A stretch of DNA of 64,000 nucleotides, from positions 179,595-243,594 of the IMG/VR virus record IMGVR_UViG_3300033405_000002. One strand, 5' to 3'. The DNA comes from a virus (Duplodnaviria; Heunggongvirae; Uroviricota; Caudoviricetes). The translations under genes were made by a program, and so were the position numbers. Positions 6,406 to 50,276 of this stretch are shown in pieces; position 1 is the first letter of the stretch; each line of letters opens with the position of its first letter. The notes below the pieces were generated by a model. The model worked only from the letters and a program-made list of their open reading frames with translations. It was not told the origin of the DNA and made no database searches.

Positions 6406-7905
6406 ATGAGTGAGGCTTCATTCATGGCGAATCTCCTGAAAAAGACAGCAGTTGGACTGACCAATGAAGGTCAGCCGGACTCCGTTTGCCCCAAGTGCCA
6501 TCAGCCCATCGCCGAAGGTCAGATGGTGAACTATCCCGGTGGAAAAGAAACGCACGTGCAGTGTCCGCCAGCGCAACAGCAGCAACCGGGACAAACTCCC
6601 GGCTGGCAGTCTCGCCTAAACCTGCCCCCCGGCTTCAAGCAAAAGCAACAACAGCCCCAGCAAATTTCCCCGAACGCCGGACGCCCAATCGCAAGTATGA
6701 GAACTGAAAAGAAGCTCGCCGGACAGCCGCCGCGATTCAGCTTTGCCGTTCCCATGGAAGCCGCAGGGAAAGTCGCATACTATCTTGCCAAAGCGGGGAT
6801 GAGAGATTTTGAAGTAATCAATTTTGAAGAGGATGCCGTCTCAGTCTTCGCTTTTACCAAAGAGCCGGAGCTTCACGTAGCGGAAGAGATCATCCGCGCT
6901 GAGTTCGCGCCACAGATCGCCGCCGAAAAAGGAATGTGGGCATCATGGACTGAGCATCCGAAAGACCCATCTCGTGTGGAGCCGACCCACGAGCAAGTAC
7001 CACAGCACATGATGAGCAGTGATAAGACCGCCGAAGACCCAAACAGCTACTTGCGCGGAAAACGTGTCACAGGGCCGCAAGCTGTTCCGTCTCGTTACGA
7101 AGCTGCCGTGCAGAAAGCACTCGCAGGTCTGGACGCATTGTCCGAGATCGGCCCTAGCGAAGACATCAAAGGTTGCGCCGCGATGAGCGCTGCTGATCTA
7201 CGTCAGTTTGTTGAAGACCACGCACAGGGACGCGCACGGAAGTTCAGCGCCGGAGAGAAGATCGCCGGACAATGGGGCGAGCGTTCTTATGATGGCGATA
7301 CGGTGCATGATCTTCTGGATGCACACCGCCCGGACAAATCCCAAGGCTTTGATTCTCCCGTCCCCGAAGAAGAAATTGAACCTTTGCTCCGCGAGCTTGA
7401 TAAGGGCCCTGTTTCGGGATCGGACGACAACCAGCACTACCTTGGTGTCATCTATTTCCTCGTGACGCACGGTTCCACCGTGCCGCCTGTCTATCGCGAG
7501 CGAGCGCGTCAGATTGCGGAAGCGATGCTCTCGGATGAAGAATATTTGAATTCGTGGAAAAACCCGAAGGAACGCGCAGCCGAACTGGAGAAAGAGATTG
7601 ACATCCTCTCTGGCGGGAAGACGGCCGGAATTCACCCGGAAGCTGATCTTCCGCTTATCACGCAAGGCGCACCAGTACAGAGTAAGGGTATGACTGATGA
7701 AGAAGTGGCGAAGATGCGCAAGTATCGCCGCAAGAAGCTGCTCGCGTGGATTGACGAGCTTGGTCTTGACCTCAGCGAAGAGTTGAAGAAGTTCGATGAA
7801 GGCGATTTCTGGGCGGCGGACGAAGCGTATGAGTCAGTCCGTGATATGGTCAATGAAGACCGTAAGTTCCAGACTCAATATCGCCGCTCGATGCGAGGGC
7901 GTTGA
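6406..7905 (+). CDS. hypothetical 499-aa protein with an N-terminal CPKC...CPP motif and a Gln/Pro-rich linker
   Basis: long ORF. Confidence 0.6.
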   Translation: MSEASFMANLLKKTAVGLTNEGQPDSVCPKCHQPIAEGQMVNYPGGKETHVQCPPAQQQQPGQTPGWQSRLNLPPGFKQKQQQPQQISPNAGRPIASMRTEKKLAGQPPRFSFAVPMEAAGKVAYYLAKAGMRDFEVINFEEDAVSVFAFTKEPELHVAEEIIRAEFAPQIAAEKGMWASWTEHPKDPSRVEPTHEQVPQHMMSSDKTAEDPNSYLRGKRVTGPQAVPSRYEAAVQKALAGLDALSEIGPSEDIKGCAAMSAADLRQFVEDHAQGRARKFSAGEKIAGQWGERSYDGDTVHDLLDAHRPDKSQGFDSPVPEEEIEPLLRELDKGPVSGSDDNQHYLGVIYFLVTHGSTVPPVYRERARQIAEAMLSDEEYLNSWKNPKERAAELEKEIDILSGGKTAGIHPEADLPLITQGAPVQSKGMTDEEVAKMRKYRRKKLLAWIDELGLDLSEELKKFDEGDFWAADEAYESVRDMVNEDRKFQTQYRRSMRGR

Positions 7906-7911
7906 AATAAC

Positions 7912-7941
7912 TGGACGAAAAGTCCAACTTCTCAGTATAAT
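7912..7941 (+). promoter_or_regulatory. sigma70-type promoter TGGACG-N18-TATAAT upstream of the tmRNA
   Basis: cTGGACGaaaagtccaacttctcagTATAAT; a member of the repeated promoter family. Confidence 0.55.
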
Positions 7942-7984
7942 GTAGAAGAAGATTGATGGTCGTGCGTTTTACAGAAGACCGTAA

Positions 7985-8248
7985 GACAATAGGCACCAGA
8001 CACGTTATCGGACGCGGGTTCGACTCCCGCCGCCTCCACCATAAAGATTTGGTGGTACTCCCACAGCAGGGCTTATGGGGGCGTCACGGCTTCGACGGTG
8101 AATGATGCGAGGATAGCGCCAACGACCCGATGATCGGTTCCCAGCGTTAATAGGGGGCAAAAAACAGTAAACGCCAACGCTCCAAAGGCAATGGCTGCTC
8201 ATGCTTAATGAGCCTGACCCGGTGGGTCAGTTCCTCAACACCACAAAA
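7985..8248 (+). ncRNA. ssrA: tmRNA (ssrA), circularly permuted two-piece type. The acceptor piece ends with ...GGACGCGGGTTCGACTCCCGCCGCCTCCACCA at 8041. The coding piece starts with GGGGGCG at 8077
   Basis: 3' T-arm and acceptor nearly identical to E. coli ssrA; coding-piece 5' GGGGGCGTCACGGCTTCGACGG resembles the tmRNA 5' end; the 5' strand GGGGGCG pairs with the 3' strand CGCCTCC and gives a G3:U70 pair; candidate tag ORF GCC AAC GCT CCA AAG GCA ATG GCT GCT CAT GCT TAA TGA at 8173-8211; helix-5-like hairpin follows. Confidence 0.75.
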
Positions 8249-8250
8249 GA

Positions 8251-8273
8251 ACCCGCGCAAGCGGGCTTTTTTG
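8251..8273 (+). terminator. rho-independent terminator after the tmRNA
   Basis: CCCGCGCAAGCGGGC hairpin followed by a T6 run. Confidence 0.7.
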
Positions 8274-8292
8274 TTTGTGGTAGAATCCTGTT

Positions 8293-8490
8293 ATGAACAC
8301 CACACTTGGTCCTTGGCTGCGCGGCGATTATCTCGACGCGGGCATTCTCGCGCTTCTCATCATCTGGTTTACTCTTGACCGTCTCAATTGCTATTTCTTC
8401 GATCTGTGGCAGGTGTTCCGCCGCTGGCTTTACATCCTAAACATTTTCACTTCGCGCCCGTGGGACGAGAATGGCAGGAGACCGCTGTAG
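8293..8490 (+). CDS. small hydrophobic protein
   Basis: 65-aa ORF; ends with TAG, which overlaps the GTG of the next gene. Confidence 0.4.
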   Translation: MNTTLGPWLRGDYLDAGILALLIIWFTLDRLNCYFFDLWQVFRRWLYILNIFTSRPWDENGRRPL

Positions 8491-8837
8491 TGGGACTCAT
8501 CAAGCTTTTCAGTGACGGCAAGTACGAACCGCCGAACCCTAATCCGAAGAACTTCAAGCTCATCCACGCGCAGTGCGCAGAAGACAAGCGGACAATCTGG
8601 GTGTGCGAAGTTTACTATCCGGGATGCACCACACTGGATGGCAGGAAAATTCTCGTCTACGAGTGCGAATTTGACGCCTTTCTCGCTTTCCTGCGCGGCA
8701 AAGAGATGGACCCGCACTTCCTTGACCCGTGGGATAAGCGACTGGGCCCGATTGCCAGATTTCCGGCGACCGAAGAAGGCATTGATGACGCGCTTCATTT
8801 CGCTGACTGGAAGAGCAGGCAGGATCGAGTATTATAG
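8490..8837 (+). CDS. hypothetical protein (GTG start)
   Basis: GTG at 8490 overlaps the upstream TAG; ends with TAG; in frame with the next gene and separated from it by one codon. Confidence 0.45.
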   Translation: MGLIKLFSDGKYEPPNPNPKNFKLIHAQCAEDKRTIWVCEVYYPGCTTLDGRKILVYECEFDAFLAFLRGKEMDPHFLDPWDKRLGPIARFPATEEGIDDALHFADWKSRQDRVL

Positions 8838-8840
8838 GCT

Positions 8841-9053
8841 ATGAACAAAGAAATTGTGCGCGAAGAAGTGGTCAAGGCGCAGTACGAATACTATTCGAAC
8901 GCCGCGAGTCTTTGGAAGAATGACTTGGAAGCTGCCTTGGAGCGCGGGGATAAAGCAGCGGCTTGCTACTATTTCAGCACGTACATCAAACTCAAGGCGC
9001 TCGTCCGTGAGATCGAAACATACGCACAGCCTTATGCAATCGAGGTCTGGTGA
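8841..9053 (+). CDS. hypothetical protein
   Basis: 70-aa ORF. Confidence 0.5.
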   Translation: MNKEIVREEVVKAQYEYYSNAASLWKNDLEAALERGDKAAACYYFSTYIKLKALVREIETYAQPYAIEVW

Positions 9054-9268
9054 TGTGCGATCAATGCTGCACGTCCGGTCGAATTCAGTATCCGCCTGAA
9101 GGCACCACCGGGAGCGCCAAGTATGTTGGTGACTGCTGGAAGTGTGGCTGGCCTTGCTACGAAAATCTGAGCCATTCGTGCCCCACCGCGCCGCGCTATA
9201 CCGGGACGTACAAGTACGGCACTTCGTGGATTCTCAACGGCAACACCCACTCGATCACCAATGACTGA
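9050..9268 (+). CDS. Cys-rich small protein
   Basis: MMCDQCCTSG...CWKCGWPC. Confidence 0.5.
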   Translation: MMCDQCCTSGRIQYPPEGTTGSAKYVGDCWKCGWPCYENLSHSCPTAPRYTGTYKYGTSWILNGNTHSITND

Positions 9269-9509
9269 GCATTACTGTGAATTCGTTATTCTATTTGAGG
9301 GCGACCAAGACGCTTACGGCAACCCTGTTGATGAAGTGGTGCAGTGTGGCAAGGTTGCACACTTCAAAGACGAATTGGATAGCTGGTGGTGCGCCGACCA
9401 TTATGATGAGTTGATGGACATGGCAAACATACAGTACGTTGAAGGTCAGGGAGTTTGCCGCATCTGCAACTGCGAATTTTTCAACGGCGAGTGCAACTGC
9501 TCATCATGA
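9261..9509 (+). CDS. Cys-rich small protein, paralog A (WWCADHYDE motif)
   Basis: 82 aa; shares the W(W/F)CADHYDE motif with the next gene. Confidence 0.5.
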   Translation: MTEHYCEFVILFEGDQDAYGNPVDEVVQCGKVAHFKDELDSWWCADHYDELMDMANIQYVEGQGVCRICNCEFFNGECNCSS

Positions 9510-9796
9510 ATTTCTGTCAATACATTGTCGATTTTCACATGGAGCCGGGGGAAGACGGTGACCCGATTTTCTGCGATAAGCCCGCCCCGATCAAATGGGA
9601 TGGCTGCTGGTTTTGCGCCGATCATTACGATGAGGTCGTGGCGAGCGCGGCCAAGCCGAAGGGCGGTTACATCTATCGGCAAGGCATGGCGTCCATGCCG
9701 GGACTTGCCTTCCCAGACGAGAAGCTGTTCATTGGCGTAGATTTTGACGAGCTTAAAAACGCTGTATTTTCATTCTGTTACGGCTCGAAAAAATAA
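9506..9796 (+). CDS. Cys-rich small protein, paralog B (CWFCADHYDE motif)
   Basis: ATGA overlap with the upstream gene; tandem paralog. Confidence 0.5.
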   Translation: MNFCQYIVDFHMEPGEDGDPIFCDKPAPIKWDGCWFCADHYDEVVASAAKPKGGYIYRQGMASMPGLAFPDEKLFIGVDFDELKNAVFSFCYGSKK

Positions 9797-9809
9797 TTTT
9801 TCGCAAATC

Positions 9810-9839
9810 TGGACAAATTTTCCGAATTCGCAGTATAAT
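9810..9839 (+). promoter_or_regulatory. sigma70-type promoter TGGACA-N18-TATAAT with a conserved upstream AAAAATAATTTTCGCAAATC element
   Basis: near-identical ~50-bp copy at 16227-16278. Confidence 0.6.
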
Positions 9840-9858
9840 AGCAGCAGGAGAAGCAAAC

Positions 9859-10320
9859 ATGAAGCTCCAACTCGAAGGTCTCTAGGTTCATCCTTACTTC
9901 TACGTCTTTGTGCGACAGGACATTTCGCTCGCGCAACAGATAGTGCAGTCCAATCACGCCACATTTGAAGTTGCTCGTCGTCTCCCAACAGACTATAGCG
10001 AAGTTCCGCACATGGTTCTTATCGGTGTGCCCGATAAGGCTGCGCTCTTCCGCGTGGTCGAAAAACTCAACAAAAATGACATAGGACATCAGGTCTTCTA
10101 CGAGCCTGATGACAACATGGGTCTGTCCGCCGTGGCAACCGTGCCACTCGAACAGAGCCAGCGCCGCTGCCTGTCCAATTACGCGATCTGGCGCGATACG
10201 ACCAAGGACAAGCAGCAACGCGAAATGCTGGCGGAACGCCTCGCCGGACGCGCCGTGCCGCCTGATGCGTGGCTCGACTGCGGAACACCATATCTCAGTG
10301 AAGGGGCAGCCAATGACTAA
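9859..10320 (+). CDS. PTH2-family-like peptidyl-tRNA hydrolase. It has an in-frame TAG at 9883-9885 after the leader MKLQLEGL, so it needs amber readthrough. Alternatively it is a GTG-9910 start or a pseudogene
   Basis: AGGAG RBS then ATG 9859; TAG at codon 9; downstream frame 'VHPYFYVFVRQDISLAQQIVQSNHATFEV...HMVLIGVPDKAALF' resembles the PTH2 beta1-alpha1 core (VVR.D....AQ..HA); there is no ATG, GTG or TTG between the TAG and GTG 9910. Confidence 0.5.
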
Positions 10321-10567
10321 GCGCGTCTACATCAAGCTGTGGGTCTACAACTACGACAGGTCGCCGCGTGCGCACTGGGTGCAGCACAACTGTAAGTCCA
10401 TCGAGCAGGCGCAGCATCTTGTCAAACGGCTGCGCTCGCTGCAAGGCGTCCTGTACTCGGACAATCGCACTGGCGGCTGGCTGATGCGCAACCACAATAT
10501 TGACGGTTTTGTTGAGCACGGTGGAATCGAAGGCATTTACGAAGAGATCACTAGGAGAATACAATGA
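10313..10567 (+). CDS. hypothetical protein
   Basis: ATGACTAA overlap with the upstream stop. Confidence 0.5.
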   Translation: MTKRVYIKLWVYNYDRSPRAHWVQHNCKSIEQAQHLVKRLRSLQGVLYSDNRTGGWLMRNHNIDGFVEHGGIEGIYEEITRRIQ

Positions 10568-10956
10568 CAAACTCTGAACTCGCACAGCAAGCCTACGAGA
10601 TTAACAACCAGATTTATGAGATCGCCAACGAGGTGTTTGGCAAGTGCCGTGAGGCCGGAATTATCGACAAGCATTACGGCTTCGACAAGTATGAGCTTGA
10701 CCAGAAAGGTATGGAGATCACAGGCGAATACTACTCCTGTGGCGATACGGATTACGAGTCGTTCCACATCCCCTACGCCGATCTGGACAACATCGACGGT
10801 TTTGTCCAGAGACGCACGGCTGAGATTGCCGAAGAGAAGCGCAAGGCGATTGAGAAGCGTGCCGCTGAAGATGAGCAAAAGAAGGTAGCGGCGGCACAGG
10901 CTGAGCGCGAGCAGTATCTTAAACTCAAGGCAAAGTTCGAGGGAGCAGGACAATGA
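10564..10956 (+). CDS. hypothetical protein with a Lys/Glu-rich coiled-coil C-terminus
   Basis: 130-aa ORF. Confidence 0.55.
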   Translation: MTNSELAQQAYEINNQIYEIANEVFGKCREAGIIDKHYGFDKYELDQKGMEITGEYYSCGDTDYESFHIPYADLDNIDGFVQRRTAEIAEEKRKAIEKRAAEDEQKKVAAAQAEREQYLKLKAKFEGAGQ

Positions 10957-11624
10957 AAACGAAAGACCTAATCAGAGAGTTGCAGGAAGCCGACCCGTCC
11001 GGCGAGATTGAAGTTTGCGTGAACAACGTAGACATCTTCTGCGTGACGACGGAACCTGCTTATTGGGATGGCAGACTGCAACTTCTGGTTCGCGATGAAA
11101 AGCTGAAGCCTTATTTCGACGTCGTTGGCGGCAAGTACGTGACGAGCGGGTCGAAGGTGGTGATCCAGCCAATGAGCATCACAGATGTTCTCTGGGACAA
11201 CCCCGAGGCCCCTGTGGATTACTCAGAGCTTGGGGAAGCAACCGAACAGCGCTACAAAGCAACCGATGACGAGACACGGAAAGCCGCCCGCGACGTCGAA
11301 TTGAAGGTTGACATGGACGCGTTTCATCGTTGGGTGGAGAAGAAAACTCAGGAGATTCGTCCGGGCAACAGCGACAAGTGCCGGAGCGCGGCGGATTATT
11401 TTTACGAGAAGAACCTGAGTCCGAAAGACCCGGTGAAAGATTTGCCGCCGAAGAAAGAAAAGATGGGCGGTATCCTTGGGATCGGTGCAAAGGAATATGA
11501 AGTTTGGCCTAGCTGGAATGAACGCCGGGAAGCGAAGTGGGACGACGATCTGGAAGTTTACTGGCGCGGCGGCTGGGGCATCCGTAAAAAAGGTGAGACA
11601 AACGGAGACACATACAGTGATTGA
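10953..11624 (+). CDS. hypothetical protein; its N-terminus is paralogous to the ORF at 16068
   Basis: MKTKDLIRELQEADPSGEIEV compared with MTVREFIMELSDYDPDAEIVV. Confidence 0.55.
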   Translation: MKTKDLIRELQEADPSGEIEVCVNNVDIFCVTTEPAYWDGRLQLLVRDEKLKPYFDVVGGKYVTSGSKVVIQPMSITDVLWDNPEAPVDYSELGEATEQRYKATDDETRKAARDVELKVDMDAFHRWVEKKTQEIRPGNSDKCRSAADYFYEKNLSPKDPVKDLPPKKEKMGGILGIGAKEYEVWPSWNERREAKWDDDLEVYWRGGWGIRKKGETNGDTYSD

Positions 11625-11790
11625 TCTTTTGAAAATCTTCACGCGGACAGAGCGCGTGTGCTGCTGCGGTTCAGAAAACCCCGGTTCACACAAACTGCGT
11701 TGCGTGAAGTGTGGCAAAGATTATTGCTGGGGGATTTTATACGGTGTGACGTGTCCGCAATGCGGATACTGCGCCGAAATGGAAGATTAA
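11617..11790 (+). CDS. Cys-rich zinc-ribbon small protein (GTG start)
   Basis: CCCGSENPG...CVKCGKDYC...CPQCGYC. Confidence 0.4.
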   Translation: MIDLLKIFTRTERVCCCGSENPGSHKLRCVKCGKDYCWGILYGVTCPQCGYCAEMED

Positions 11791-11794
11791 GTTT

Positions 11795-11954
11795 GCGCGG
11801 GTAGCTCAGTGGGAAGTTGGAAGACGGGTTGATCTCCGTTACGACAGCTTCATGAGCGCCATCGGTGAGACAGGGGGAATGAGAGGGACGCTTCTTTGGA
11901 AGCCTGTCAATAAACGTGAAAGCAAGGGTGGTTCGATTCCATCCCCGCGCACCA
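11795..11954 (+). tRNA. tRNA-like gene, aberrant at 160 nt. It has canonical acceptor 5' and D-stem 5' ends (GCGCGGGTAGCTCAG) and a canonical T-arm, acceptor 3' strand and CCA, but about 90 nt are inserted between them
   Basis: acceptor GCGCGGG pairs with CCCGCGC; T-loop TTCGATT; paralog of the tRNA-like gene at 12432; no canonical D-stem 3' or anticodon arm identified. Confidence 0.35.
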
Positions 11955-11955
11955 A

Positions 11956-12028
11956 GGGCGGTTAGCTCAGTGAAAGAGCGCTCGGCTTGTCCGAGAGGTC
12001 GGGGGTTCAAGTCCTTCACCGCCCACCA
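11956..12028 (+). tRNA. tRNA-like gene with a shortened anticodon arm (5-bp stem CTCGG/CCGAG closed by a 5-nt loop CTTGT)
   Basis: acceptor GGGCGGT/ACCGCCC; D-arm GCTC...GAGC; T-loop TTCAAGT; encoded CCA. Confidence 0.4.
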
Positions 12029-12033
12029 AGTTA

Positions 12034-12155
12034 TGCAGGATAAAGGCTCAGGCGAAGATAGGTCGCACTTATCAGACCAAAAGCTGAAGTTGGCAACACG
12101 GCGCTTGCCCTCATCGTGAGATGAGAAACCGGGTTCGACTCCCGGCCCTGCACCA
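12034..12155 (+). tRNA. tRNA-like gene, long at about 120 nt. It has a T-arm and acceptor with a hairpin variable arm (CTCATCGTGAGATGAG), but no canonical D-arm or anticodon arm
   Basis: T-arm CCGGG-TTCGACT-CCCGG; 5' TGCAGGA pairs with 3' CCCTGCA; candidate anticodon hairpin has an 8-nt loop. Confidence 0.3.
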
Positions 12156-12289
12156 AATGTAAAACGGGCACACGCTGTTAGGGAACCGCGCCGTAAATGT
12201 TCTGTTAGAAAGAGCAGGACACTAGGCAGCGGACAGCAGCTTGCGGAGCCAAGTACGGCAAACTGAAAACGCGGGAAATACCATGGTGA

Positions 12290-12344
12290 GTACCGCGCAA
12301 GTAATCCGCATTCGCCGGAGGTTCGATTCCTCAGGTGCCCACCA
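12290..12344 (+). tRNA. tRNA 3'-half-like element (T-arm, acceptor 3' strand and CCA); no convincing 5' half found
   Basis: GGAGG-TTCGATT-CCTCA then GGTGCCC-A-CCA. Confidence 0.25.
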
Positions 12345-12354
12345 AGTTTGTTGC

Positions 12355-12430
12355 GCCTGATTAGCTCAGCGCAGAGCACCGGACTTTTAGTCCGGGGGTC
12401 GGCTGGTTCAACTCCGGTCATCAGGCTCCA
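12355..12430 (+). tRNA. tRNA-Lys(UUU)
   Basis: acceptor GCCTGAT/ATCAGGC; anticodon arm CCGGA-CTTTTAG-TCCGG; T-loop TTCAACT; CCA encoded. Confidence 0.6.
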
Positions 12431-12431
12431 T

Positions 12432-12505
12432 ACGCGGGTAGCTCAGAGAAAGAGCATCCGGCGCAAGCTGGAAGGTCGGTGGTTTAATTCCATCCCCGCG
12501 TGCCA
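12432..12505 (+). tRNA. tRNA-like gene in which the anticodon arm is replaced by a 6-bp hairpin capped by a GCAA (GNRA) tetraloop
   Basis: acceptor ACGCGGG/CCCGCGT; D-arm GCTC-AGAGAAA-GAGC; T-loop TTTAATT; TCCGGC-GCAA-GCTGGA. Confidence 0.4.
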
Positions 12506-12506
12506 C

Positions 12507-12541
12507 GGGGCTGTGGCGTTAGTAGCGTCGCAGCCCCACCA
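12507..12541 (+). other. acceptor-stem minihelix-like element: a 7-bp stem, a 17-nt loop, then A-CCA
   Basis: GGGGCTG...CAGCCCC-A-CCA immediately after the tRNA-like gene. Confidence 0.3.
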
Positions 12542-12607
12542 AGTTCATGAGTTTGTTGGAGTTGTATCGGTAGCCAAAGATGGTTGGTTTTCCGTATACT
12601 TGGGTAT

Positions 12608-12684
12608 GCGCCCGTAACGCTTAGCGGCTAAAGCTGTGGTCTCTAAAACCGTGATCGGGGGTTCGAGTCCCTCCGGGCGCACCA
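12608..12684 (+). tRNA. tRNA with anticodon CUA (amber suppressor type). It has two extra nt between the acceptor and the D-stem
   Basis: acceptor GCGCCCG/CGGGCGC; anticodon arm GTGGT-CTCTAAA-ACCGT with U33, CUA at 12643-12645 and A37; T-loop TTCGAGT; CCA encoded. Confidence 0.5.
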
Positions 12685-12713
12685 ACCTTCAGTATTAACC
12701 CCCAGCACAAGAT

Positions 12714-12817
12714 GCCCCGGTAGCTCAATAGCAGAGCAGCGGTCTCTAAAACCGTCCTCACTAGAGCAGCGGATGTTAATCCGTTGGTTACGGGTTCAAG
12801 TCCCGTCCGGGGTTCCA
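12714..12817 (+). tRNA. tRNA with anticodon CUA (amber suppressor type) and an about 34-nt variable arm
   Basis: canonical D-arm GCTC-AATAGCA-GAGC; anticodon arm GCGGT-CTCTAAA-ACCGT with CUA at 12746-12748; variable-arm hairpin CGGAT-GTTA-ATCCG; T-loop TTCAAGT; acceptor GCCCCGG/CCGGGGT. Confidence 0.55.
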
Positions 12818-12818
12818 C

Positions 12819-12893
12819 ACTCCTGTAGCTCAACGTGGCTAGAGCGCGGTCCCTAAAATCGCAGATGCGAGTTCGATGCTCGCCGGGAGTGCC
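12819..12893 (+). tRNA. tRNA with anticodon CUA (amber suppressor type, C33 variant)
   Basis: acceptor ACTCCTG/CGGGAGT; D-arm GCTC-AACGTGGCTA-GAGC; anticodon arm GCGGT-CCCTAAA-ATCGC with CUA at 12853-12855; T-arm GCGAG-TTCGATG-CTCGC; CCA. Confidence 0.5.
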
Positions 12894-12897
12894 AACG

Positions 12898-12926
12898 ATT
12901 GACAAATTCACTAGACGCGGTATTAT
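12898..12926 (+). promoter_or_regulatory. sigma70-type promoter TTGACAAATT...TATTAT, related to the TGGACAAATT family
   Basis: gaTTGACAaattcactagacgcggTATTATgtg, right after the last tRNA. Confidence 0.5.
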
Positions 12927-13034
12927 GTGAATGGCGATAGTACCTCGCAATAGAGAACCGTCAACATCCGATACGTAGAAGCTTCATGAAGTCGTTCGGT
13001 GAGAATCAGGGCTTGCGCGTGGTTGAGCTATGTG

Positions 13035-13058
13035 GGGGTGTGCAGCGCTGCACACCCC
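13035..13058 (+). promoter_or_regulatory. perfect 24-bp palindrome (candidate operator) between the promoter and the RBS
   Basis: GGGGTGTGCAGC|GCTGCACACCCC; no trailing T-run, so it is not a terminator. Confidence 0.45.
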
Positions 13059-13077
13059 TGCGCTATCTAGGATCGAA

Positions 13078-13569
13078 ATGAAACTCGCACGGATCGAACA
13101 TTGGCGTTGCGGTGAACCTATCGGTTGGAAGAACGGCAGCGGCTCCACGTATGTGTGGGTGCCCGATTCAATGACCGAAGAAGAGTTCAGCACGTTCTGT
13201 GAGAACGCCCGCCAATCTTACCTCCTCGTGGAAGAGGGGTTCAAAAAGAAAGCTCCGGTCTATCCACCGGGATACGGCCCGTCCATCGAGCATTACCCTG
13301 ACACCATGACGGTCGCTGAGATCAAGGCCGATCACGCAAAGAAAACCGCTGCATACAAAACGTACACAGATGAGTGCAATCGGGCGCGGAAGCCGTATTC
13401 GTGGCATCTGCAATTAGTCAGTGGTGGTACAATCAGACTGTTCTATGATGTGAAGCCAGAGCTTGAGTACGAGCTTTCATGGGGCCATAGACACGGCACC
13501 ACGATTGAGCACAGCGGCACTGACTTCGGCGATTATCCACCAAAAACAGAAGACGAGGACGGACTGTAA
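13078..13569 (+). CDS. hypothetical protein
   Basis: AGGA RBS; 163 aa. Confidence 0.5.
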   Translation: MKLARIEHWRCGEPIGWKNGSGSTYVWVPDSMTEEEFSTFCENARQSYLLVEEGFKKKAPVYPPGYGPSIEHYPDTMTVAEIKADHAKKTAAYKTYTDECNRARKPYSWHLQLVSGGTIRLFYDVKPELEYELSWGHRHGTTIEHSGTDFGDYPPKTEDEDGL

Positions 13570-13859
13570 TGCCAAGAAACCTTCACTGCGGATGTCTCTG
13601 CCACGGCTCCAACGGGAACCGGATCGGTGATGAATATTTCGCCTGCAAGAACTGCTATGCGGCGAACCACATGCACAACTTACCCAAGGTTGTGCCACAG
13701 CAGCGCACGAAGCCTGCTGGGAAACCCCGCAAGCCACGCCCTACCGCGCCGACTGGCACGATTGAAGCCGTTGCTGCCGCCGTAGCCACTGAAACTCCAA
13801 AGCTGGATCGCACGAAACCGTTGTATGATCGCAGCAAGAAGATCGAGCAGAACGTTTAG
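13569..13859 (+). CDS. zinc-finger protein with a basic C-terminus
   Basis: CGCLCHGSNGNRIGDEYFACKNC; ends with TAG. Confidence 0.5.
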   Translation: MPRNLHCGCLCHGSNGNRIGDEYFACKNCYAANHMHNLPKVVPQQRTKPAGKPRKPRPTAPTGTIEAVAAAVATETPKLDRTKPLYDRSKKIEQNV

Positions 13860-13993
13860 ACATTGACCGGAATCCGAAACGTATGTCGGAGGAAGGCAAT
13901 CCTTGGCAACAGGTTAATTGCACGTGTGCTCAACACATAAAATACCGAGCCGAGTCCGCCAGATGACCCGTTAGCAATGTGAGCCGTGTCCTA

Positions 13994-14076
13994 CCTTGAC
14001 TCGATAATATAGGTCGTGCGCCCGTGGCTCGTAAACACCGTGGATGTGTCTAGCCTTGACTCATAATGGTAGGCCG
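13994..14076 (+). repeat. two copies of an about 25-nt direct-repeat motif CCTTGACTC(G)ATAAT..GG.CGT spaced about 60 nt apart
   Basis: 13994-14018 and 14054-14076; TTGACT then ATAAT only 3-4 nt later, so it is not a standard sigma70 spacing. Confidence 0.4.
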
Positions 14077-14143
14077 TTCTCCTCGACCGTCAACCGGGGA
14101 AGGTTTCGGCGGGGGATTCCATAAAACCTGCCACAGTTTCCAG

Positions 14144-14365
14144 ATGAGCGACTTCACGGATTTCCTGATTGACGGCCCAGATCGTCCCCGCAAGAAGCCG
14201 AAGAAAGCACGGCGCTGCGTGAACTTTGACATCTGCGGTAAGCGCGTCTCCCCTCACAGTGACGAGAAACAGTGCTACTGGTGCATCAAAGCTGAGCGCT
14301 GCCCATCCTGCGGCGGCACGCCGGACGGCCCTTTTGGATGTGAAGATTGTATGGTACTATCCTGA
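14144..14365 (+). CDS. Cys-rich small protein
   Basis: CVNFDICGK...CYWC...CPSCGG...CEDC. Confidence 0.4.
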   Translation: MSDFTDFLIDGPDRPRKKPKKARRCVNFDICGKRVSPHSDEKQCYWCIKAERCPSCGGTPDGPFGCEDCMVLS

Positions 14366-14403
14366 TTTCTGGTATCATACATAGAACATCCAAGGAGGAT
14401 GCC

Positions 14404-15323
14404 ATGTCACAGCGGGACGCTTAAATGAGACTTTACGCCGTCATTTTGACGGGTATGGTCTCCCTTTCTCTTTTTCAACCAACGTAATCCCCGAAAACGA
14501 TCCAACCACTCTCTTCATTAGCGCGGGGATGCAACCACTCAAACCAAGGTTTCAGACGCCGGACGGCACAGGCTACGGCAATGTGCAGTATTGTGTGCGC
14601 ACGAACGACATTGACGAAGTGGGCGATGGCACGCATCTGACTTTCTTCCAGATGATCGGCAGCTTCGGCTTTGGCACCTACAACTACGAGAGCCACGTGC
14701 AGATGTGGTCGGACATCATGACCGACCTGAAGATTCCTATTGACCACGTGGACGTTCACCCAGACTCCCAGCTAGATTATCTGTGGCTTCAGCGCGGCTA
14801 CGGCGTGCGCATGAACCCGGAGTGTGTTTGGTCGGACGGCAATGTCGGCGGTTATTGCTGCGAACTATTCACGCCGGACGGACTCGAAGTAGGCAATCTG
14901 GTGAACCCATTGCAGCACTCCGTGGACGTAGGATTCGGCTACGAACGAATCTTGCAGATCATGGAGGGCAAATCTCGCGTGGATGAGACGAGCCTTTTCA
15001 ACCAGTTTCTCGATCCGATTTCTCGCGACCATTTTCGCACGCTCAACGTGTTTCATGAGCAAGGGATTGTTCCGGGGAACAAAGGGCGGAATTACGTCTG
15101 CCGCCGCCTGATTCGCCGCTTTATCCGGTTGAATCCAAACGGTTTAGAGTGTTCGTTCATGGATTGGATGGATGATGAACGAATCCGCATGGAGAATTCG
15201 ATCCGCGACGGGCGCAAGCATTGGCGCAGGAATAAACGCAAACTCCCACCAATACCGAACTCGTTCTATTGGGAGACTTTCGGCATCATGCCCGATGAGA
15301 TGGTATTAGTGAAAGAGGAATAG
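14404..15323 (+). CDS. alanyl-tRNA synthetase catalytic-domain fragment (mini-AlaRS). It is split into an SD-ATG leader MSQRDA-TAA (14404-14424) and a -1 frame (14385-15323); it needs a -1 frameshift, or it is a pseudogene or carries a sequencing indel
   Basis: frame-0 region 'ENDPTTLFISAGM...QYCVR...THLTFFQMIGSFGFGTYNYESH...VDVGFGYERILQI...GNKGRNYVCRRLIRRFIRL' matches the E. coli AlaRS motifs HNDPTLLFTNAGM, QRCVR, HHTFFEMLGNFSFGDYFK, IDTGMGLERI and GRGYVLRRIIRRA; AlaRS-like homology extends 48 codons upstream of the first ATG (14529) with no start codon in that frame; the AAGGAGGA RBS serves ATG 14404 in the +1 frame; ends with TAG. Confidence 0.6.
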
Positions 15324-16871: not shown

Positions 16872-16954
16872 GCCGATGTGGCTCAGCGGCGACAGCAGCG
16901 GTTCCGTAAACCGCCACACAAACATCGGGGGTTCGAGTCCCTCCATCGGCTCCA
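16872..16954 (+). tRNA. tRNA-Thr(CGU) with a 3-bp D-stem and a 12-nt unpaired variable region (C33)
   Basis: anticodon arm GCGGT-TCCGTAA-ACCGC; paralog of 17830-17911. Confidence 0.5.
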
Positions 16955-17829: not shown

Positions 17830-17911
17830 GCCAACGTGGCACAGCGGCGACTGCAACGGTTTTGTAAACCGTCATCCCACATCGGAGGTTCGAGTCCTCT
17901 CGTTGGCTCCA
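17830..17911 (+). tRNA. tRNA-Thr(UGU) with a long unpaired variable region
   Basis: anticodon arm ACGGT-TTTGTAA-ACCGT; T-loop TTCGAGT. Confidence 0.55.
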
Positions 17912-18003: not shown

Positions 18004-18089
18004 TGGGAGATGGTGGAAAAGTGTAAACACGCCAGTCTTTGAAACTGGTGCCGATAGGCTTGCAGGTTCGAGTCCTGCTCTCCCAGCCA
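18004..18089 (+). tRNA. tRNA-Gln(UUG), second copy, with a 12-nt variable region
   Basis: anticodon arm CCAGT-CTTTGAA-ACTGG; T-arm GCAGG-TTCGAGT-CCTGC. Confidence 0.55.
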
Positions 18090-20493: not shown

Positions 20494-21548
20494 GAAACCC
20501 GTTTCTGATTTTCTTGGAGTCCATGCGCGTTGCACACAACAAAGTTATTCTGCTGCTGTATCGAGCGTTTGCGCTCGTCACACTTTACGGCATTCTCGCG
20601 CTCGTGCTGGGCTACGCTGTCTATATGGGTTTCTACGCGATGAACACTTCGTGGGTTGCCCCGACAATCATCAGTCCGACAAATGACAAGATTCTCGATC
20701 TCACGTCCAAGATCGTGACTAGTGAGCAGACGCTTGCGGTGTTGACAGTTGACCGTGACCATCAGATGTCCAGCTTGGGTGAAATGAAGGGCACCGTCAC
20801 CGCGCTTCAAGCCTTGGATAGCAAATTTCAAGTTGCTATCGCGGAACAAAGCAAGAGCAACAAAGTTGACGGCCCGGAACTTTCCCAACTCGATAACCGG
20901 AAAAAGATTGATAACACTAAAACGTCTGAAGTTGTCGCACAACTTGCAATCGTTGAGGCGCAAGTTGACAAAGACCTGAAGAACGGTCTTATCACGAAAG
21001 TGGACGCGGCATCTGCCAAGGCAACTATCAACCAAGCACGCACGACCGCAACCGACAGCGAGATCACTGAAGTGATGCTGCGTGACAGTATGCGGCAAAA
21101 GACCAGCACGCACTTCAATACGGTTGACGCGCTGGCGAAAGAAGCGGAACTCAAGGGAAATATTGTTCAGCTTCAAATCCTGATCCACACAGGCGAGATG
21201 CAGTTGACGAGTGATCTTGTGCAGATTAAACAACTCGAAAGCGCAATCGCCTTGGCGCAGGATAGCCCGTATTTTCTGGCGACGAAGGGGAAGGTGCAGT
21301 TTGCTTTCGTCCCGTATGCGAACGCATCTAACGCGAAGGTCGGCGCGAAAGTGTACGACTGTTATCTCAGCTTCATCGCGTGTCGTTACGTTGGCACGGT
21401 AGTTCGAGTGTTCAATGACGAAGAAGTCATCAATCATCCGGTATTCAAAACAGCGATCCGTGGAACGTTGACTCAACTTGACCTGAAAGACCCGGAAGCC
21501 GGGAAAGACGCAACTCTGTTTTTTGGTCACAAACCGTTCTTGTTCTAA
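20490..21548 (+). CDS. membrane-anchored coiled-coil protein, a possible HlyD-like periplasmic adaptor or polysaccharide co-polymerase
   Basis: N-terminal TM helix, long coiled-coil, C-terminal beta-rich domain; ATGA overlap with the GT2 gene. Confidence 0.4.
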   Translation: MRNPFLIFLESMRVAHNKVILLLYRAFALVTLYGILALVLGYAVYMGFYAMNTSWVAPTIISPTNDKILDLTSKIVTSEQTLAVLTVDRDHQMSSLGEMKGTVTALQALDSKFQVAIAEQSKSNKVDGPELSQLDNRKKIDNTKTSEVVAQLAIVEAQVDKDLKNGLITKVDAASAKATINQARTTATDSEITEVMLRDSMRQKTSTHFNTVDALAKEAELKGNIVQLQILIHTGEMQLTSDLVQIKQLESAIALAQDSPYFLATKGKVQFAFVPYANASNAKVGAKVYDCYLSFIACRYVGTVVRVFNDEEVINHPVFKTAIRGTLTQLDLKDPEAGKDATLFFGHKPFLF

Positions 21549-21559
21549 GCGAGGAAGCC

Positions 21560-22609: not shown

Positions 22610-22618
22610 GAGACTGAC

Positions 22619-22810: not shown

Positions 22811-22927
22811 CACTTCAGTGCTACGATGCAAAATAAAAAGAAGCACCTTCCGAACAGAAGGAATCATAGAGATGTCAAGAACCTTTCGGTTCTGGTTTAG
22901 ATTACTAGCGGCAACCCCGCTTCAAGG

Positions 22928-50254: not shown

Positions 50255-50276
50255 TTGAGCTTGAGCGGAGCTAAGA

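What the first reader, a model, noticed from the sequence alone, without database searches (positions are those of the whole stretch)
12608..12893. Three consecutive tRNAs with a CUA anticodon (amber suppressors) in a genome that still terminates genes with TAG
Three adjacent tRNA genes (12608-12684, 12714-12817, 12819-12893) share the anticodon stem-loop GGTC(T/C)CTAAAA(C/T)CG. The 7-nt loop is C-U/C-C-U-A-A-A, which gives the anticodon 5'-CUA-3' that decodes UAG. Their acceptor stems and variable arms differ, so they are unlikely to be trivial duplicates and may carry different amino acids. About 12 clearly real genes in the window end with TAG, including the 1650-aa ORF, and no long ORF is interrupted by TAG, so this is not a globally amber-recoded phage. 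Three suppressors in a standard-code genome suggest regulated or targeted readthrough. One candidate target is the PTH2-like gene at 9859, which carries an in-frame TAG. Another possibility is interference with host translation termination.
Basis: seen in the sequence. Interest (0 to 1): 0.85.

Follow-up and report, generated by a model that had tools for sequence, protein, structure and literature searches.

The report
Amber suppressor tRNAs gating a hydrolase gene
A giant phage that otherwise uses the normal genetic code carries three genuine tRNAs that read the UAG stop codon, and their conserved target is a UAG placed at the very start of a nearby peptidyl-tRNA-hydrolase-like gene, a pairing found across many jumbo phages whose suppressor tRNAs had no known target.

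Summary
Three adjacent + strand genes (12608-12684, 12714-12817, 12819-12894) are tRNAs with a CUA anticodon and an encoded CCA end. They are three distinct paralogues, with discriminators A73, U73 and G73, and each has orthologues in related phages.

The window comes from a huge myophage that uses the standard code. TAG ends 11 genes here and interrupts none, with one exception. A PTH2-fold gene has its own sigma-70-like promoter, SD and ATG at 9859. It then has eight codons, an in-frame TAG at 9883, and the conserved N-terminal strand VHPYFYVFVRQD. No canonical start codon lies after the TAG until inside that strand.

Across 79 distinct homologous loci, including isolates GAP32, ME3, Arash, fHe-Yen9-03, RsoM2USA and CM1, 68 have the same short leader plus TAG with no ATG after it. 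Of 26 such loci with enough flank, 24 carry a CUA tRNA nearby. One lineage has TGA instead, next to an orthologous UCA tRNA. Lineages that lost the tRNAs use an ordinary ATG.

The tRNAs therefore act as a translational gate on this enzyme, and in relatives on an HD-domain partner. The purpose of the gate is inferred, not shown. I found no paper describing the link.

The parts
12608..12684 (+). Amber suppressor tRNA 1. Anticodon CUA in loop CUCUAAA, acceptor GCGCCCG/CGGGCGC, discriminator A73, encoded CCA. It has a 2-nt insertion after position 9 relative to its orthologues.
   Evidence: ARAGORN. Rfam tRNA model, 36.9 bits. Orthologues at L139 8226, L138 7618 and L144 8470. It belongs to the G1:C72/A73 class, which holds 31 of 78 unique CUA tRNAs.
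12714..12817 (+). Amber suppressor tRNA 2. Anticodon CUA, acceptor GCCCCGG with a G1-U72 pair, discriminator U73, encoded CCA. A roughly 30-nt extra arm sits in the variable region and contains the hairpin GCGGA-UGUUAA-UCCGU.
   Evidence: Rfam tRNA model, 56.0 bits over the full model. ARAGORN with introns allowed. The same extra hairpin occurs in L137 with two compensatory pair changes and the same loop. A third copy is in the metagenomic set.
12819..12894 (+). Amber suppressor tRNA 3. Anticodon CUA in loop CCCUAAA (C33), acceptor ACUCCUG with an A1:U72 pair, discriminator G73, encoded CCA.
   Evidence: ARAGORN. Rfam tRNA model, 42.6 bits. Orthologues at L144 8569 and L141 8294. It belongs to the A1:U72/G73 class, which holds 17 of 78 unique CUA tRNAs.
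9810..9839 (+). Sigma-70-like promoter TGGACA-18-TATAAT directly upstream of the gated gene.
   Evidence: Consensus scan, 11 of 12 matches; one of the three best sites (10-11 of 12) in 7800-14600. This is a consensus match only. No transcription data were available.
9846..9885 (+). Shine-Dalgarno AGGAG (9846-9850), ATG 9859, eight-codon leader MKLQLEGL, then the in-frame TAG at 9883-9885.
   Evidence: Read from the sequence. It is the only + strand site in the window with a strong SD and ATG upstream of a TAG and no usable start after it. Homologous leaders with TAG occur in 68 of 79 distinct loci.
9886..10320 (+). Body of the PTH2-fold (peptidyl-tRNA-hydrolase-like) protein, beginning VHPYFYVFVRQD and ending at the TAA at 10318-10320. 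The first standard start codon is GTG 9910, which lies inside beta-strand 1.
   Evidence: 87 homologues, aligned. AlphaFold2 model with pLDDT 84.7 and strand 1 at residues 4-10. The top 13 Foldseek PDB hits are all Pth2/Bit1, E 2.5e-5 to 4.6e-4, TM about 0.7. Pfam PTH2 gives only E 0.14.

Best explanation
**What is shown or strongly supported.**
- The three genes encode amber suppressor tRNAs of a huge myophage that otherwise uses the standard code.
- Their conserved target in cis is one UAG, placed nine codons into a divergent PTH2-fold gene 2.3 kb upstream.
- Ribosomes start at the SD and ATG at 9859. They make the enzyme only if a phage tRNA-CUA outcompetes release factor 1 at codon 9. Otherwise an 8-residue peptide is released.
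- The UAG lies in a variable N-terminal leader, so the inserted residue does not matter. This fits the use of three suppressors with different discriminator bases.

**What is inferred (the purpose).**
- The pair works as an AND gate or coherent feed-forward loop.
- The hydrolase gene sits behind what looks like a host-type promoter, which may mean early transcription; timing was not tested. Its protein appears only once the phage's own tRNA genes have been transcribed, processed and charged.
- In relatives an HD-domain partner is gated in the same way and fused to the hydrolase in XacN1-like phages. This suggests a module that acts on the tRNA pool.
For: **tRNAs.**
- All three are confirmed as CUA tRNAs.
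- Their nearest relatives are other phage CUA tRNAs, never sense tRNAs.
- Three discriminator classes recur across 78 unique CUA tRNAs.

**Standard code.**
- TAG ends 11 genes in the window and splits none.

**Gate anatomy.**
- SD, ATG and TAG are followed by the conserved strand VHPYFYVFVRQD, with no canonical start before GTG 9910.
- The fold is PTH2, and strand 1 lies upstream of that GTG.

**Conservation.**
- Of 79 distinct loci, 68 are TAG-gated with no ATG after the TAG.
- At least 20 different leader peptides occur.
- The nucleotide after the TAG is a purine in 70 of 72 cases.

**Co-occurrence and covariation.**
- Of 26 TAG-gated loci with at least 3.5 kb downstream, 24 carry a tRNA-CUA within 8 kb.
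- L155 has MH-TGA-IANTHSYVFVRYD next to a tRNA-UCA that is about 80% identical to CUA tRNAs of the G1:C72 type, while TGA still ends other genes there.
- L147 and L213 lack the CUA tRNAs that their relatives carry at the same place and use a new ATG.

**Isolates.**
- ME3, GAP32 (annotated Sup-tRNA), Arash, fHe-Yen9-03, RsoM2USA and CM1/XacN1 show the same layout.

**Whole genome.**
- In phage Arash there is one CUA tRNA. The PTH2-like gene is the only coding-strand hit for the leader-stop pattern.

**Other gated genes.**
- In relatives, HD-domain and roughly 150-aa genes next to the suppressor tRNAs have the same leader plus TAG.

**Promoter.**
- A sigma-70-like promoter lies at 9810-9839.
Against: - There are no expression, aminoacylation or proteomic data, so suppression at this UAG is inferred from sequence alone.
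- tRNA 1 has an unusual 4-nt acceptor/D linker and tRNA 3 has C33, so their efficiency is unknown.
- Three lineages have an ATG directly after the TAG (L180, L236, L249). XacN1 has one four codons after. In those the gate need not be obligatory.
- Two TAG-gated locus types (e.g. L156-158) show no CUA tRNA within the fetched flank.
- The many loci are phylogenetically related, so the counts overstate independent events.
- TAG still ends about a fifth of the phage's own genes. Efficient suppression would extend those proteins.
- Only 64 kb of a genome of about 278 kb or more was seen.
- The purpose of the gate (timing, safety lock or feedback) is not discriminated by any result here.
Confidence: 0.78

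Rival explanations
1. The tRNAs and the hydrolase form a negative-feedback homeostat rather than a timer. The PTH2-like enzyme hydrolyses the aminoacyl or peptidyl form of the suppressor tRNA itself. Its synthesis rises with suppressor activity and caps readthrough, which protects the phage's own TAG-terminated genes.
For: - Linkage is tight and often immediate: the tRNA-CUA lies within 100-400 nt of the gene in L155, L164, L165, L179, L180 and ME3.
- TAG remains a normal stop for 11 genes in the window and for several genes in Arash, so unlimited suppression would be costly.
- By analogy, RF2 synthesis senses RF2 activity through an early in-frame UGA (own knowledge).
Against: - Substrate specificity is untested.
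- Lineages that lost the suppressors keep the enzyme under an ordinary start (L147/L213, RaK2), so the enzyme has a role without the suppressor.
- The catalytic Lys of canonical Pth2 is not evident in the alignment (not verified structurally).
Confidence: 0.3
2. The main job of the tRNAs is to disturb host translation termination at UAG, or to make C-terminally extended isoforms of phage proteins. On this view the gated hydrolase is a secondary passenger that deals with the resulting stalled ribosomes, together with the phage tmRNA.
For: - A phage tmRNA (7949-8299) and an AlaRS-like gene lie in the same block.
- Three suppressor genes look like more than one gate needs.
- Readthrough of window TAG stops would add 11-73 codons and would fuse 8490-8837 to 8841-9053.
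Against: - No conserved extension was found. The authors of the XacN1 paper tested 18 amber stops and found nothing (PMC5852040).
- The only feature that tracks the suppressor anticodon across lineages is the early stop in this gene family and its HD partner.
- When the tRNAs are lost, the gate is lost with them.
Confidence: 0.2
3. The genome is partly recoded (code 15) in a block outside this window, and the tRNAs serve that block.
For: - Only 64 kb of a contig of about 278 kb was examined.
- Block-wise recoding with suppressor tRNAs is known in gut phages (Borges et al. preprint).
Against: - The structural genes in the window (sheath of 1291 aa, ORF of 1650 aa) have no in-frame TAG, and one ends in TAG.
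- About 414 kb of relatives show the leader-TAG pattern only in three gene families beside the tRNAs.
- The complete Arash genome shows no split genes on the coding strand beyond ordinary same-frame neighbours.
- At 53% GC with TAG at about 18% of stops, the genome does not fit the low-GC, TAG-depleted profile of recoded lineages.
Confidence: 0.06
4. The short leader is an upstream mini-ORF that ends at UAG, and the hydrolase is translated by re-initiation without any suppression. The neighbouring suppressor tRNAs are coincidental.
For: - Leaders are often only 2-3 codons (MA, MM, ML, MT, MH), like minigenes that cause peptidyl-tRNA drop-off (lambda bar; own knowledge).
- In some lineages the codon after the TAG is ATG, ATT, ATC or GTG.
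Against: - In most lineages the next codon is GTT, GTC, AAT, AAC, ACC, GAT or AAG, none of which is a start codon.
- The leader ATG is always in frame with the body.
- The stop is TAG in 72 of 73 gated sites. It is TGA in exactly the lineage whose neighbouring tRNA reads UGA.
Confidence: 0.06

Closest known systems
Stop-codon recoding in phages with phage-encoded suppressor tRNAs (code 15 in crAss-like, Lak and other gut phages; Borges et al., bioRxiv 10.1101/2021.08.26.457843)
   Same: - A phage-encoded tRNA-CUA changes the reading of UAG in a host that uses the standard code.
- It has been proposed as a way to control when certain phage genes are translated.
   Different: - In those phages, many late, structural and lysis genes carry many in-frame TAGs, and TAG is depleted as a terminator in low-GC genomes.
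- Here one gene in 64 kb (one to three in relatives) carries a single TAG at its extreme N-terminus.
- Here TAG remains an ordinary terminator, at about 18% of stops in a 53% GC genome.
Orphan suppressor tRNAs reported in standard-code jumbo phages (XacN1, PMC5852040; RsoM2USA, PMC8504454; GAP32 record; Atu_ph07, PMC6102473; phiKp24, PMC8386662)
   Same: - The situation is the same: CUA (or UCA or UUA) tRNAs in phages that use the standard code.
- XacN1, RsoM2USA and GAP32 carry homologues of the gated gene found here.
   Different: - Those papers named no target. The XacN1 authors state they could not identify one after testing C-terminal readthrough.
- Here a conserved N-terminal target is identified.
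- In those records the gene is truncated (GAP32) or unannotated (fHe-Yen9-03, RsoM2USA); in XacN1 it is annotated from an ATG four codons after the TAG.
Autoregulatory recoding in translation-factor genes (prfB +1 frameshift at an early in-frame UGA; infC AUU start). Own knowledge.
   Same: An early recoding signal in a gene for a translation-related enzyme makes its synthesis depend on the state of the translation apparatus.
   Different: - In those cases the sensed factor is the gene's own product, and the event is a frameshift or start-codon discrimination.
- Here the sensed component is a separate, dedicated tRNA, and the event is nonsense suppression.
- Feedback has not been shown here.
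Synthetic suppressor-tRNA feed-forward 'leak dampener' circuits (PMC7969014; PMC13276491)
   Same: An amber codon placed early in a gene, together with a co-regulated suppressor tRNA, gives an AND gate that removes expression when the tRNA is absent.
   Different: Those circuits are engineered. This would be a natural counterpart that is evolutionarily conserved, uses up to three suppressor identities, and shows anticodon/stop-codon co-variation.
PTH2 of jumbo phages (Iyer et al. 2021, PMC7824862; RaK2 ORF188, PMC3622015)
   Same: [quoted passage not shown]
   Different: - The gated family is a divergent paralogue: Pfam gives E 0.14, and GAP32 has a separate canonical PTH2, GAP32_382.
- Neither paper mentions the in-frame stop or the link to suppressor tRNAs.

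Membership tests
Nonsense (amber) suppressor tRNA | Cloverleaf tRNA that scores above threshold with tRNA models | tested here: met
   Rfam RF00005 gives 36.9, 56.0 and 42.6 bits against a gathering score of 29. ARAGORN finds all three.
Nonsense (amber) suppressor tRNA | A 7-nt anticodon loop with CUA at positions 34-36 | tested here: met
   The loops are CUCUAAA, CUCUAAA and CCCUAAA, each closed by a 5-bp stem. tRNA 3 has C33 instead of the usual U33.
Nonsense (amber) suppressor tRNA | Aminoacylated, and inserts an amino acid at UAG in vivo | not testable with these tools
   Support is indirect only. The three families are conserved. The conserved in-frame UAG target co-varies with the anticodon. 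P0052 and P0068 have Q (MHQV...) where relatives have MH-TAG-V.
tRNA-Pyl (the label ARAGORN gives) | 6-bp anticodon stem, 3-nt variable loop, very small D-loop, a single base between acceptor and D stems, and pylS/pylBCD genes nearby | tested here: not met
   The anticodon stems are 5 bp, the variable regions are 4-5 nt or about 30 nt, and the D-loops are normal. The proteins scanned with Pfam (20 of the window's genes) gave no pyl-family match; neighbours were not specifically checked against PylS or PylBCD models. The label reflects the anticodon only.
Code-15 (TAG reassigned) phage genome | Many genes with internal in-frame TAG; gene calls improve when TAG is read as sense | tested here: not met
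   One gene in 64 kb has an in-frame TAG. The apparent 1001-codon TAG-bridged frame at 21482-24484 is three separate genes, two of them (22620-22810 and 22928-24484) with a visible own ATG and one with a clear SD, and two (the first and the last) with N-terminal signal peptides. The rest of the genome was not seen.
Code-15 (TAG reassigned) phage genome | TAG abandoned as a terminator | tested here: not met
   TAG ends 11 + strand genes, including the UvrD helicase and the 1650-aa ORF.
PTH2 (peptidyl-tRNA hydrolase 2, PF01981) | PTH2 alpha/beta fold | tested here: met
   The AlphaFold2 model has pLDDT 84.7. The top 13 Foldseek PDB hits are Pth2/Bit1 (3erj, 2zv3, 1q7s, 1rlk, 1xty, 1wn2) at probability 1.0 and TM about 0.7.
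PTH2 (peptidyl-tRNA hydrolase 2, PF01981) | Sequence match above the Pfam gathering score | tested here: not met
   The score is 12.8 bits against a cut-off of 23, E 0.14. This is a divergent sister family, not a scored member.
PTH2 (peptidyl-tRNA hydrolase 2, PF01981) | Catalytic residues and peptidyl-tRNA hydrolase activity | not tested
   The invariant columns are R10, D12, Q18, Q21, H24, E73, G79 and R93, and D75 is nearly invariant. They were not mapped onto the catalytic Lys and Asp of solved Pth2 structures.
Suppressor-gated gene (early stop codon read by a cognate phage tRNA) | Conserved coding sequence continues in frame directly after the stop, with no usable start codon | tested here: met
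   This holds in the window and in 68 of 79 distinct loci. Beta-strand 1 lies before the first standard start.
Suppressor-gated gene (early stop codon read by a cognate phage tRNA) | The stop codon type matches the suppressor anticodon in the same locus | tested here: met
   TAG goes with CUA in 24 of 26 loci with enough flank. TGA goes with UCA in L155. Where there is no gate there is no suppressor, in L147/L213, L177 and (tRNA list from the paper) RaK2.

The most novel reading that the evidence does not exclude
- Jumbo phages that use the standard code carry a previously unrecognised two-part translational switch.
- One part is a set of dedicated suppressor tRNAs in up to three identity classes.
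- The other part is a stop codon placed in the first 2-13 codons of tRNA-metabolism enzymes: a divergent PTH2-fold hydrolase and an HD-domain partner, which are fused in XacN1-like phages.
- Anticodon and stop codon co-evolve: CUA with TAG, and UCA with TGA.
- This would give the long-orphaned suppressor tRNAs of XacN1, GAP32, RsoM2USA, ME3 and similar phages their first conserved target.
- It would also show that a virus can use a private codon reading as a gene-specific regulatory channel without recoding its genome.
Probability: 0.6. Interest if true: 0.88.

Novelty: new variant of a known kind. Interest (0 to 1): 0.82.

Why it matters
**An open question in the literature.**
- Suppressor tRNAs have been noted repeatedly in cultured standard-code jumbo phages.
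- The authors either state that no target could be found or only guess at one (PMC5852040, PMC8504454, PMC6102473, PMC8386662).
- The result here gives a specific, conserved and testable target, and several easily grown phages (Arash, ME3, GAP32, RsoM2USA) in which to test it.

**Annotation.**
- It explains why this gene family is systematically truncated or missing in annotations.

**Wider implications.**
- It shows a minimal form of stop-codon recoding that may resemble the first step towards the whole-block recoding seen in gut phages.
- It offers a natural counterpart of the engineered suppressor-tRNA gates used in synthetic biology.
- It ties an unstudied PTH2-like/HD enzyme pair to phage control of the tRNA pool.

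Tried and rejected
- **Apparent long readthrough frame.** The 1001-codon frame 21482-24484 without TAA or TGA looked like a readthrough fusion. It is three separate genes in one frame; 22620-22810 has a clear SD and ATG, and the first and last open with signal peptides.
- **Short anticodon-arm search.** A 15-nt pattern searched in IMG/VR gave about 119 hits. These are uninformative, because roughly that many are expected by chance for a 15-mer.
- **AlaRS-like protein in IMG/VR.** A related-loci search with this protein found nothing.
- **Amino-acid identity of the tRNAs.** Their nearest neighbours are only other CUA tRNAs. BLAST against E. coli genomes gave nothing useful. The resemblance of the anticodon arm to E. 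coli tRNA-Trp/su7 rests on my own memory and was not verified.
- **Homologues that looked ungated.** P0085 and P0079 turned out to be gene-calling artefacts. Both have MT-TAG leaders and adjacent CUA tRNAs.
- **Initiator-tRNA reading of the CUA tRNAs.** I rejected it. There is no C1xA72 mismatch and no three G:C pairs at the bottom of the anticodon stem.
- **Other gated families.** The HD-domain and roughly 150-aa gated families of relatives have no homologue in this window.
- **Atu_ph07.** This phage has a UCA suppressor and two PTH genes. It was not checked, because it did not appear among the hits for this family.
Full report
**1. The observation**

ARAGORN reports 13 RNA genes in the window. 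They include tRNAs with anticodon cta at 12608-12684 and 12819-12894. With introns allowed it also finds a cta tRNA at 12714-12817.

The Rfam tRNA covariance model matches all three over its whole length. The scores are 36.9, 56.0 and 42.6 bits against a gathering score of 29. In the middle gene the model places a roughly 30-nt insertion in the variable region.

The anticodon loops are CUCUAAA, CUCUAAA and CCCUAAA on 5-bp stems, so the anticodon is CUA in each. All three genes encode the CCA end.

The three genes differ in several ways:
- **tRNA 1** has acceptor GCGCCCG and discriminator A73. It has two extra bases after position 9 compared with its orthologues.
- **tRNA 2** has acceptor GCCCCGG, a G1-U72 pair and U73. 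It also carries an extra hairpin, GCGGA-UGUUAA-UCCGU.
- **tRNA 3** has acceptor ACUCCUG, an A1:U72 pair, G73 and C33.

**2. The genome and its code**

The window is a piece of a huge myophage. It contains:
- a 1291-aa tail sheath, a UvrD helicase, NAMPT and an AAA ATPase;
- a permuted tmRNA;
- an AlaRS-like gene.

The tail sheath is 58% identical to that of a 463-kb IMG/VR contig. The PTH2-like protein of this phage is on record on a 278-kb contig.

Nearly all genes lie on the + strand. TAG terminates 11 of them, including the helicase and the 1650-aa ORF.

One 1001-codon stretch without TAA or TGA (21482-24484) looked like a readthrough fusion. It resolves into three separate genes; the middle one has a clear SD and ATG, and the outer two open with signal peptides.

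A scan of every in-frame TAG found one site with a strong Shine-Dalgarno and ATG upstream and no usable start downstream. That site is at 9859-9885. The code is therefore standard, with one exception.

**3. The exception**

A sigma-70-like promoter, TGGACA-18-TATAAT, lies at 9810-9839. It is followed by AGGAG at 9846-9850 and then ATG at 9859.

The reading frame runs MKLQLEGL, then TAG at 9883, then VHPYFYVFVRQDISLAQQIVQSNHAT... to the TAA at 10320. Between the TAG and GTG 9910 there is no ATG, GTG or TTG.

A protein search found 87 homologues. Those called with complete N-termini begin M..(H)PYFYVFVRQD, so the residues after the window's TAG are conserved coding sequence. Most close homologues had been called from an internal GTG or ATG, as MFVRQD or MRQD.

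An AlphaFold2 model (pLDDT 84.7) places beta-strand 1 at YFYVFVR, which is upstream of GTG 9910. The 13 best Foldseek matches in the PDB are all Pth2/Bit1. Pfam PTH2 reaches only E 0.14. The protein is therefore PTH2-fold but a divergent family. GAP32 has a separate canonical PTH2 as well.

**4. Related loci**

I examined the DNA upstream of the homologues in these sets:
- 3 long ENA/JGI contigs;
- 30 IMG/VR loci;
- 80 metagenome loci;
- 8 cultured phages.

Pooling the distinct sites gives the following:

| Site type | Number of 79 distinct sites |
|---|---|
| SD, ATG and a short leader, then TAG directly before the conserved core, with no ATG in between | 68 |
| MT-TAG followed directly by ATG | 3 |
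| TGA-gated (L155) | 1 |
| TAG in front of a fused HD domain (XacN1, CM1) | 2 |
| Ordinary start (L147/L213, L214, L260, L177, RaK2) | 5 |

At least 20 different leaders occur. They include MA, MM, ML, MQ, MH, MT, ME, MR, MTL, MQNL, MSQH, MAQ, MSH, MRKAIGDL, MRKIDEGNITGL and MKLQLEGL.

The base after the TAG is G in 41 cases, A in 29, C in 2 and T in none. After the genuine TAG stops in the window it is a purine in 6 of 11. From my own knowledge, a 3' purine favours amber suppression in E. coli. The V/I residue encoded at that position may also explain the bias.

**5. Link to the tRNAs**

Of the 26 TAG-gated loci with at least 3.5 kb of downstream sequence, 24 carry one to three CUA tRNAs within 8 kb. 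In several the tRNA lies within a few hundred bases.

Three observations go beyond co-occurrence:
- **A switched stop codon.** L155 reads MH-TGA-IANTHSYVFVRYD. The tRNA 100 nt downstream has anticodon UCA in loop CUUCAAA and is about 80% identical to CUA tRNAs of the G1:C72 type. TGA still ends other genes in that locus.
- **Loss of both parts together.** L147/L213 lacks the CUA tRNAs that its relative L141 has at the same place. Its hydrolase starts at a new ATG (MTHIYIFVRQD). A relic of the old leader plus TAG sits upstream.
- **A glutamine at the stop position.** P0052 and P0068 read MHQV... where relatives read MH-TAG-V. CAG is one step from TAG. This is a weak hint that Gln is accepted or inserted.

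In a scan of 414 kb of the window and relatives, the pattern of SD, ATG, up to 13 codons, a stop, and then an ORF of at least 90 codons occurs 25 times with TAG. It occurs 4 times with TGA and 3 times with TAA.

**6. Cultured phages and the literature**

The same layout is present in several isolates:
- **Acinetobacter ME3:** MT-TAG-IHENKKHTYVFVRRD, with an annotated 'anticodon CTA' tRNA 420 bp upstream.
- **Cronobacter GAP32:** MAQ-TAG-NEKTWIYVFVRTD, with an annotated Sup-tRNA 3 kb downstream that ARAGORN confirms as CUA.
- **Salmonella Arash:** ML-TAG-NKHWIYTFVRYD. The gene is annotated as a 50-aa 'peptidyl-tRNA hydrolase', and the CUA tRNA is annotated as tRNA-Phe.
- **Yersinia fHe-Yen9-03 and Ralstonia RsoM2USA:** the gene is not annotated in either record.
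- **Stenotrophomonas CM1 and Xanthomonas XacN1:** MK-TAG stands in front of an HD-domain/PTH2-like fusion.

The XacN1 paper reports two CUA suppressors and states that no target could be identified after in-silico readthrough of 18 amber stops (PMC5852040). The RsoM2USA and Atu_ph07 papers note a suppressor without naming a target. Iyer et al. and the RaK2 paper note PTH2 in jumbo phages but not the stop codon or the tRNA link. Six full-text searches found no paper that connects the two. The library is incomplete, so prior description cannot be excluded.

**7. A complete genome**

I reassembled the 180,819-bp genome of phage Arash from four fetches. It has 25 tRNAs, one of them with anticodon CUA.

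The genome-wide leader-stop scan gives seven hits. Only the PTH2-like gene lies on the coding strand in an unannotated gap. Internal TAGs on the coding strand are ordinary stops between neighbouring genes. In that genome the hydrolase is the only N-terminally gated gene.

**8. Other gated genes in relatives**

Two further families next to the suppressor tRNAs carry M-X-TAG leaders:
- an HD-domain protein (L134, L137, L142, L153);
- a roughly 150-aa protein (L143, L144).

Both appear. The HD domain is the N-terminal domain of the XacN1/CM1 fusion, which links the HD and PTH2-like proteins functionally. Neither family has a homologue in this window.

**9. The three tRNAs as a set**

Each tRNA's nearest relatives are CUA tRNAs of other phages, never sense tRNAs.

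Across 78 unique CUA tRNAs, three classes recur:

| Class | Number of tRNAs | Window member |
|---|---|---|
| G1:C72 with A73 | 31 | tRNA 1 |
| A1:U72 with G73 | 17 | tRNA 3 |
| U73 | 16 | tRNA 2 |

Several relatives carry one tRNA of each class (L138, L144, L192, L202, L211). The extra arm of tRNA 2 recurs in L137 with two compensatory base-pair changes and the same loop.

Different discriminator bases imply different synthetases, and so probably different amino acids. The identities could not be established here. The A1:U72/G73 body and the GGUCUCUAAAACC arm resemble E. coli tRNA-Trp and its su7 derivative, which is charged mainly with Gln. That comparison rests on my own knowledge and was not verified.

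**10. Mechanism**

The following is shown or strongly supported. These are genuine CUA tRNAs in a standard-code phage. A conserved in-frame UAG must be read for a PTH2-fold protein to be made with its first strand. The stop codon and the suppressor anticodon are coupled through evolution.

The following is inferred. The tRNAs are charged and outcompete RF1 at this site. The N-terminal position makes failed attempts cheap, because only a di- to octapeptide is released. It also makes the identity of the inserted residue irrelevant.

My preferred reading is an AND gate or coherent feed-forward loop. The gene has what looks like a host-type promoter, which could mean early transcription (timing was not tested), but its product appears only when the phage's own tRNA genes are expressed, processed and charged.

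A negative-feedback homeostat on suppression is a serious alternative. Disturbance of host termination may be an additional effect. A hidden recoded block and suppression-independent re-initiation are both unlikely on the evidence above.

**11. Verdict**

Following it outward shows a widespread suppressor-tRNA/gated-hydrolase module, apparently undescribed, in jumbo phages.

It is a new variant of known kinds: phage suppressor tRNAs, and programmed readthrough. It is not a new category. Interest is high because it gives a concrete and easily tested answer to a question left open in several phage genome papers.

Noticed in passing
window 11790-11955, 12033-12150, 12160-12345 (+): Three tRNA-like elements have a 7-bp acceptor stem, a T-arm and an encoded CACCA end, but carry insertions of about 45-110 nt where the D or anticodon region should be. 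ARAGORN calls two of them intron-containing tRNAs (Pro-UGG, Gly-ACC). The third element (12160-12345) is well conserved in the 463-kb relative L138. No Rfam family matched.
   Followed up: partly
window 11956-12028 and 12432-12505 (+): Two tRNAs have aberrant anticodon loops. The 'tRNA-Gln(UUG)' has loop GCUUGUC, without U33. The second has a 6-nt loop, for which ARAGORN reports anticodon 'ca'. Relatives carry similar oddities: 2-base (6-nt loop) or 4-base (8-nt loop) anticodon calls, including a 'ctag' 8-nt loop in L139.
   Followed up: no
window 12755-12790, inside tRNA 2; L137 12780-12815: The extra arm of tRNA 2 is a degenerate copy of the tRNA's own D-stem 3' strand plus its anticodon arm (AGAGCAGCGG...). 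It has a conserved 6-nt loop UGUUAA, which contains UUA. The stem shows compensatory changes between the window and L137.
   Followed up: partly
window 7949-8299 (+): A phage-encoded permuted (two-piece type) tmRNA has tag ANAPKAMAAHA. It is preceded by a sigma-70-like promoter at 7912-7941. It is conserved upstream of the gated gene in most relatives, with varying tags.
   Followed up: no
window 14529-15323 (+): A 264-aa AlaRS-like protein matches only about residues 60-320 of bacterial AlaRS (motif 2/3 region and the start of the tRNA-recognition domain). It ends in TAG and is conserved in L134, L135 and L137. None of the three suppressors has G3:U70, so it is more likely to serve the tmRNA or a tRNA-Ala.
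   Followed up: partly
L134 11598, L137 11956, L142 7182, L153 6891; L143 7793, L144 7966: Two further gene families beside the suppressor tRNAs of relatives start with M-X-TAG leaders. One is an HD-domain protein with motif YHDCGKPFC...HFPNHA...HSNA. The other is a roughly 150-aa protein. The HD domain is fused to the PTH2-like domain in XacN1 ORF364 and in CM1.
   Followed up: partly
L151 7044, L164 6313, L180 10434: tRNAs with anticodon UUA (ochre suppressors) sit next to the CUA tRNAs in three lineages. I did not look for TAA-gated genes.
   Followed up: no
L147 5294-6005: In the lineage that lost the CUA tRNAs, a relic of the old leader (MRKAIGDL-TAG-VSQQQPPYF) is still present about 700 nt upstream of the hydrolase. 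The hydrolase now starts at a new ATG. This looks like an insertion or rearrangement inside the old gene.
   Followed up: no
window 16872-16954, 17830-17911, 18004-18089 (+): The tRNAs called Thr(CGU), Thr(UGU) and Gln(UUG) are 82-86 nt long and have unpaired variable loops of 11-13 nt. This is unusual for those isoacceptors. The same forms recur in relatives.
   Followed up: no
window 8490-8837 and 8841-9053 (+): A gene that ends in TAG is followed one codon later, in the same frame, by the ATG of the next gene. Amber suppression would therefore fuse the two products. The same geometry occurs at 21560-22609 and 22620-22810. This may be chance, since one neighbour in three shares a frame.
   Followed up: no
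OQ632216.1 (Arash) 49173-49247 and 50233-50565; JN882285.1 (GAP32) 290150-290464; LT960552.1 and MG752970.1: Public records mis-annotate the module. In Arash the CUA tRNA is labelled tRNA-Phe and the hydrolase is a 50-aa stub. In GAP32 the gene is truncated. In fHe-Yen9-03 and RsoM2USA it is not annotated at all.
   Followed up: yes
window 46379-50254 (+): The tail sheath protein is 1291 aa, roughly twice the usual length. Only its C-terminal third matches sheath profiles.
   Followed up: no
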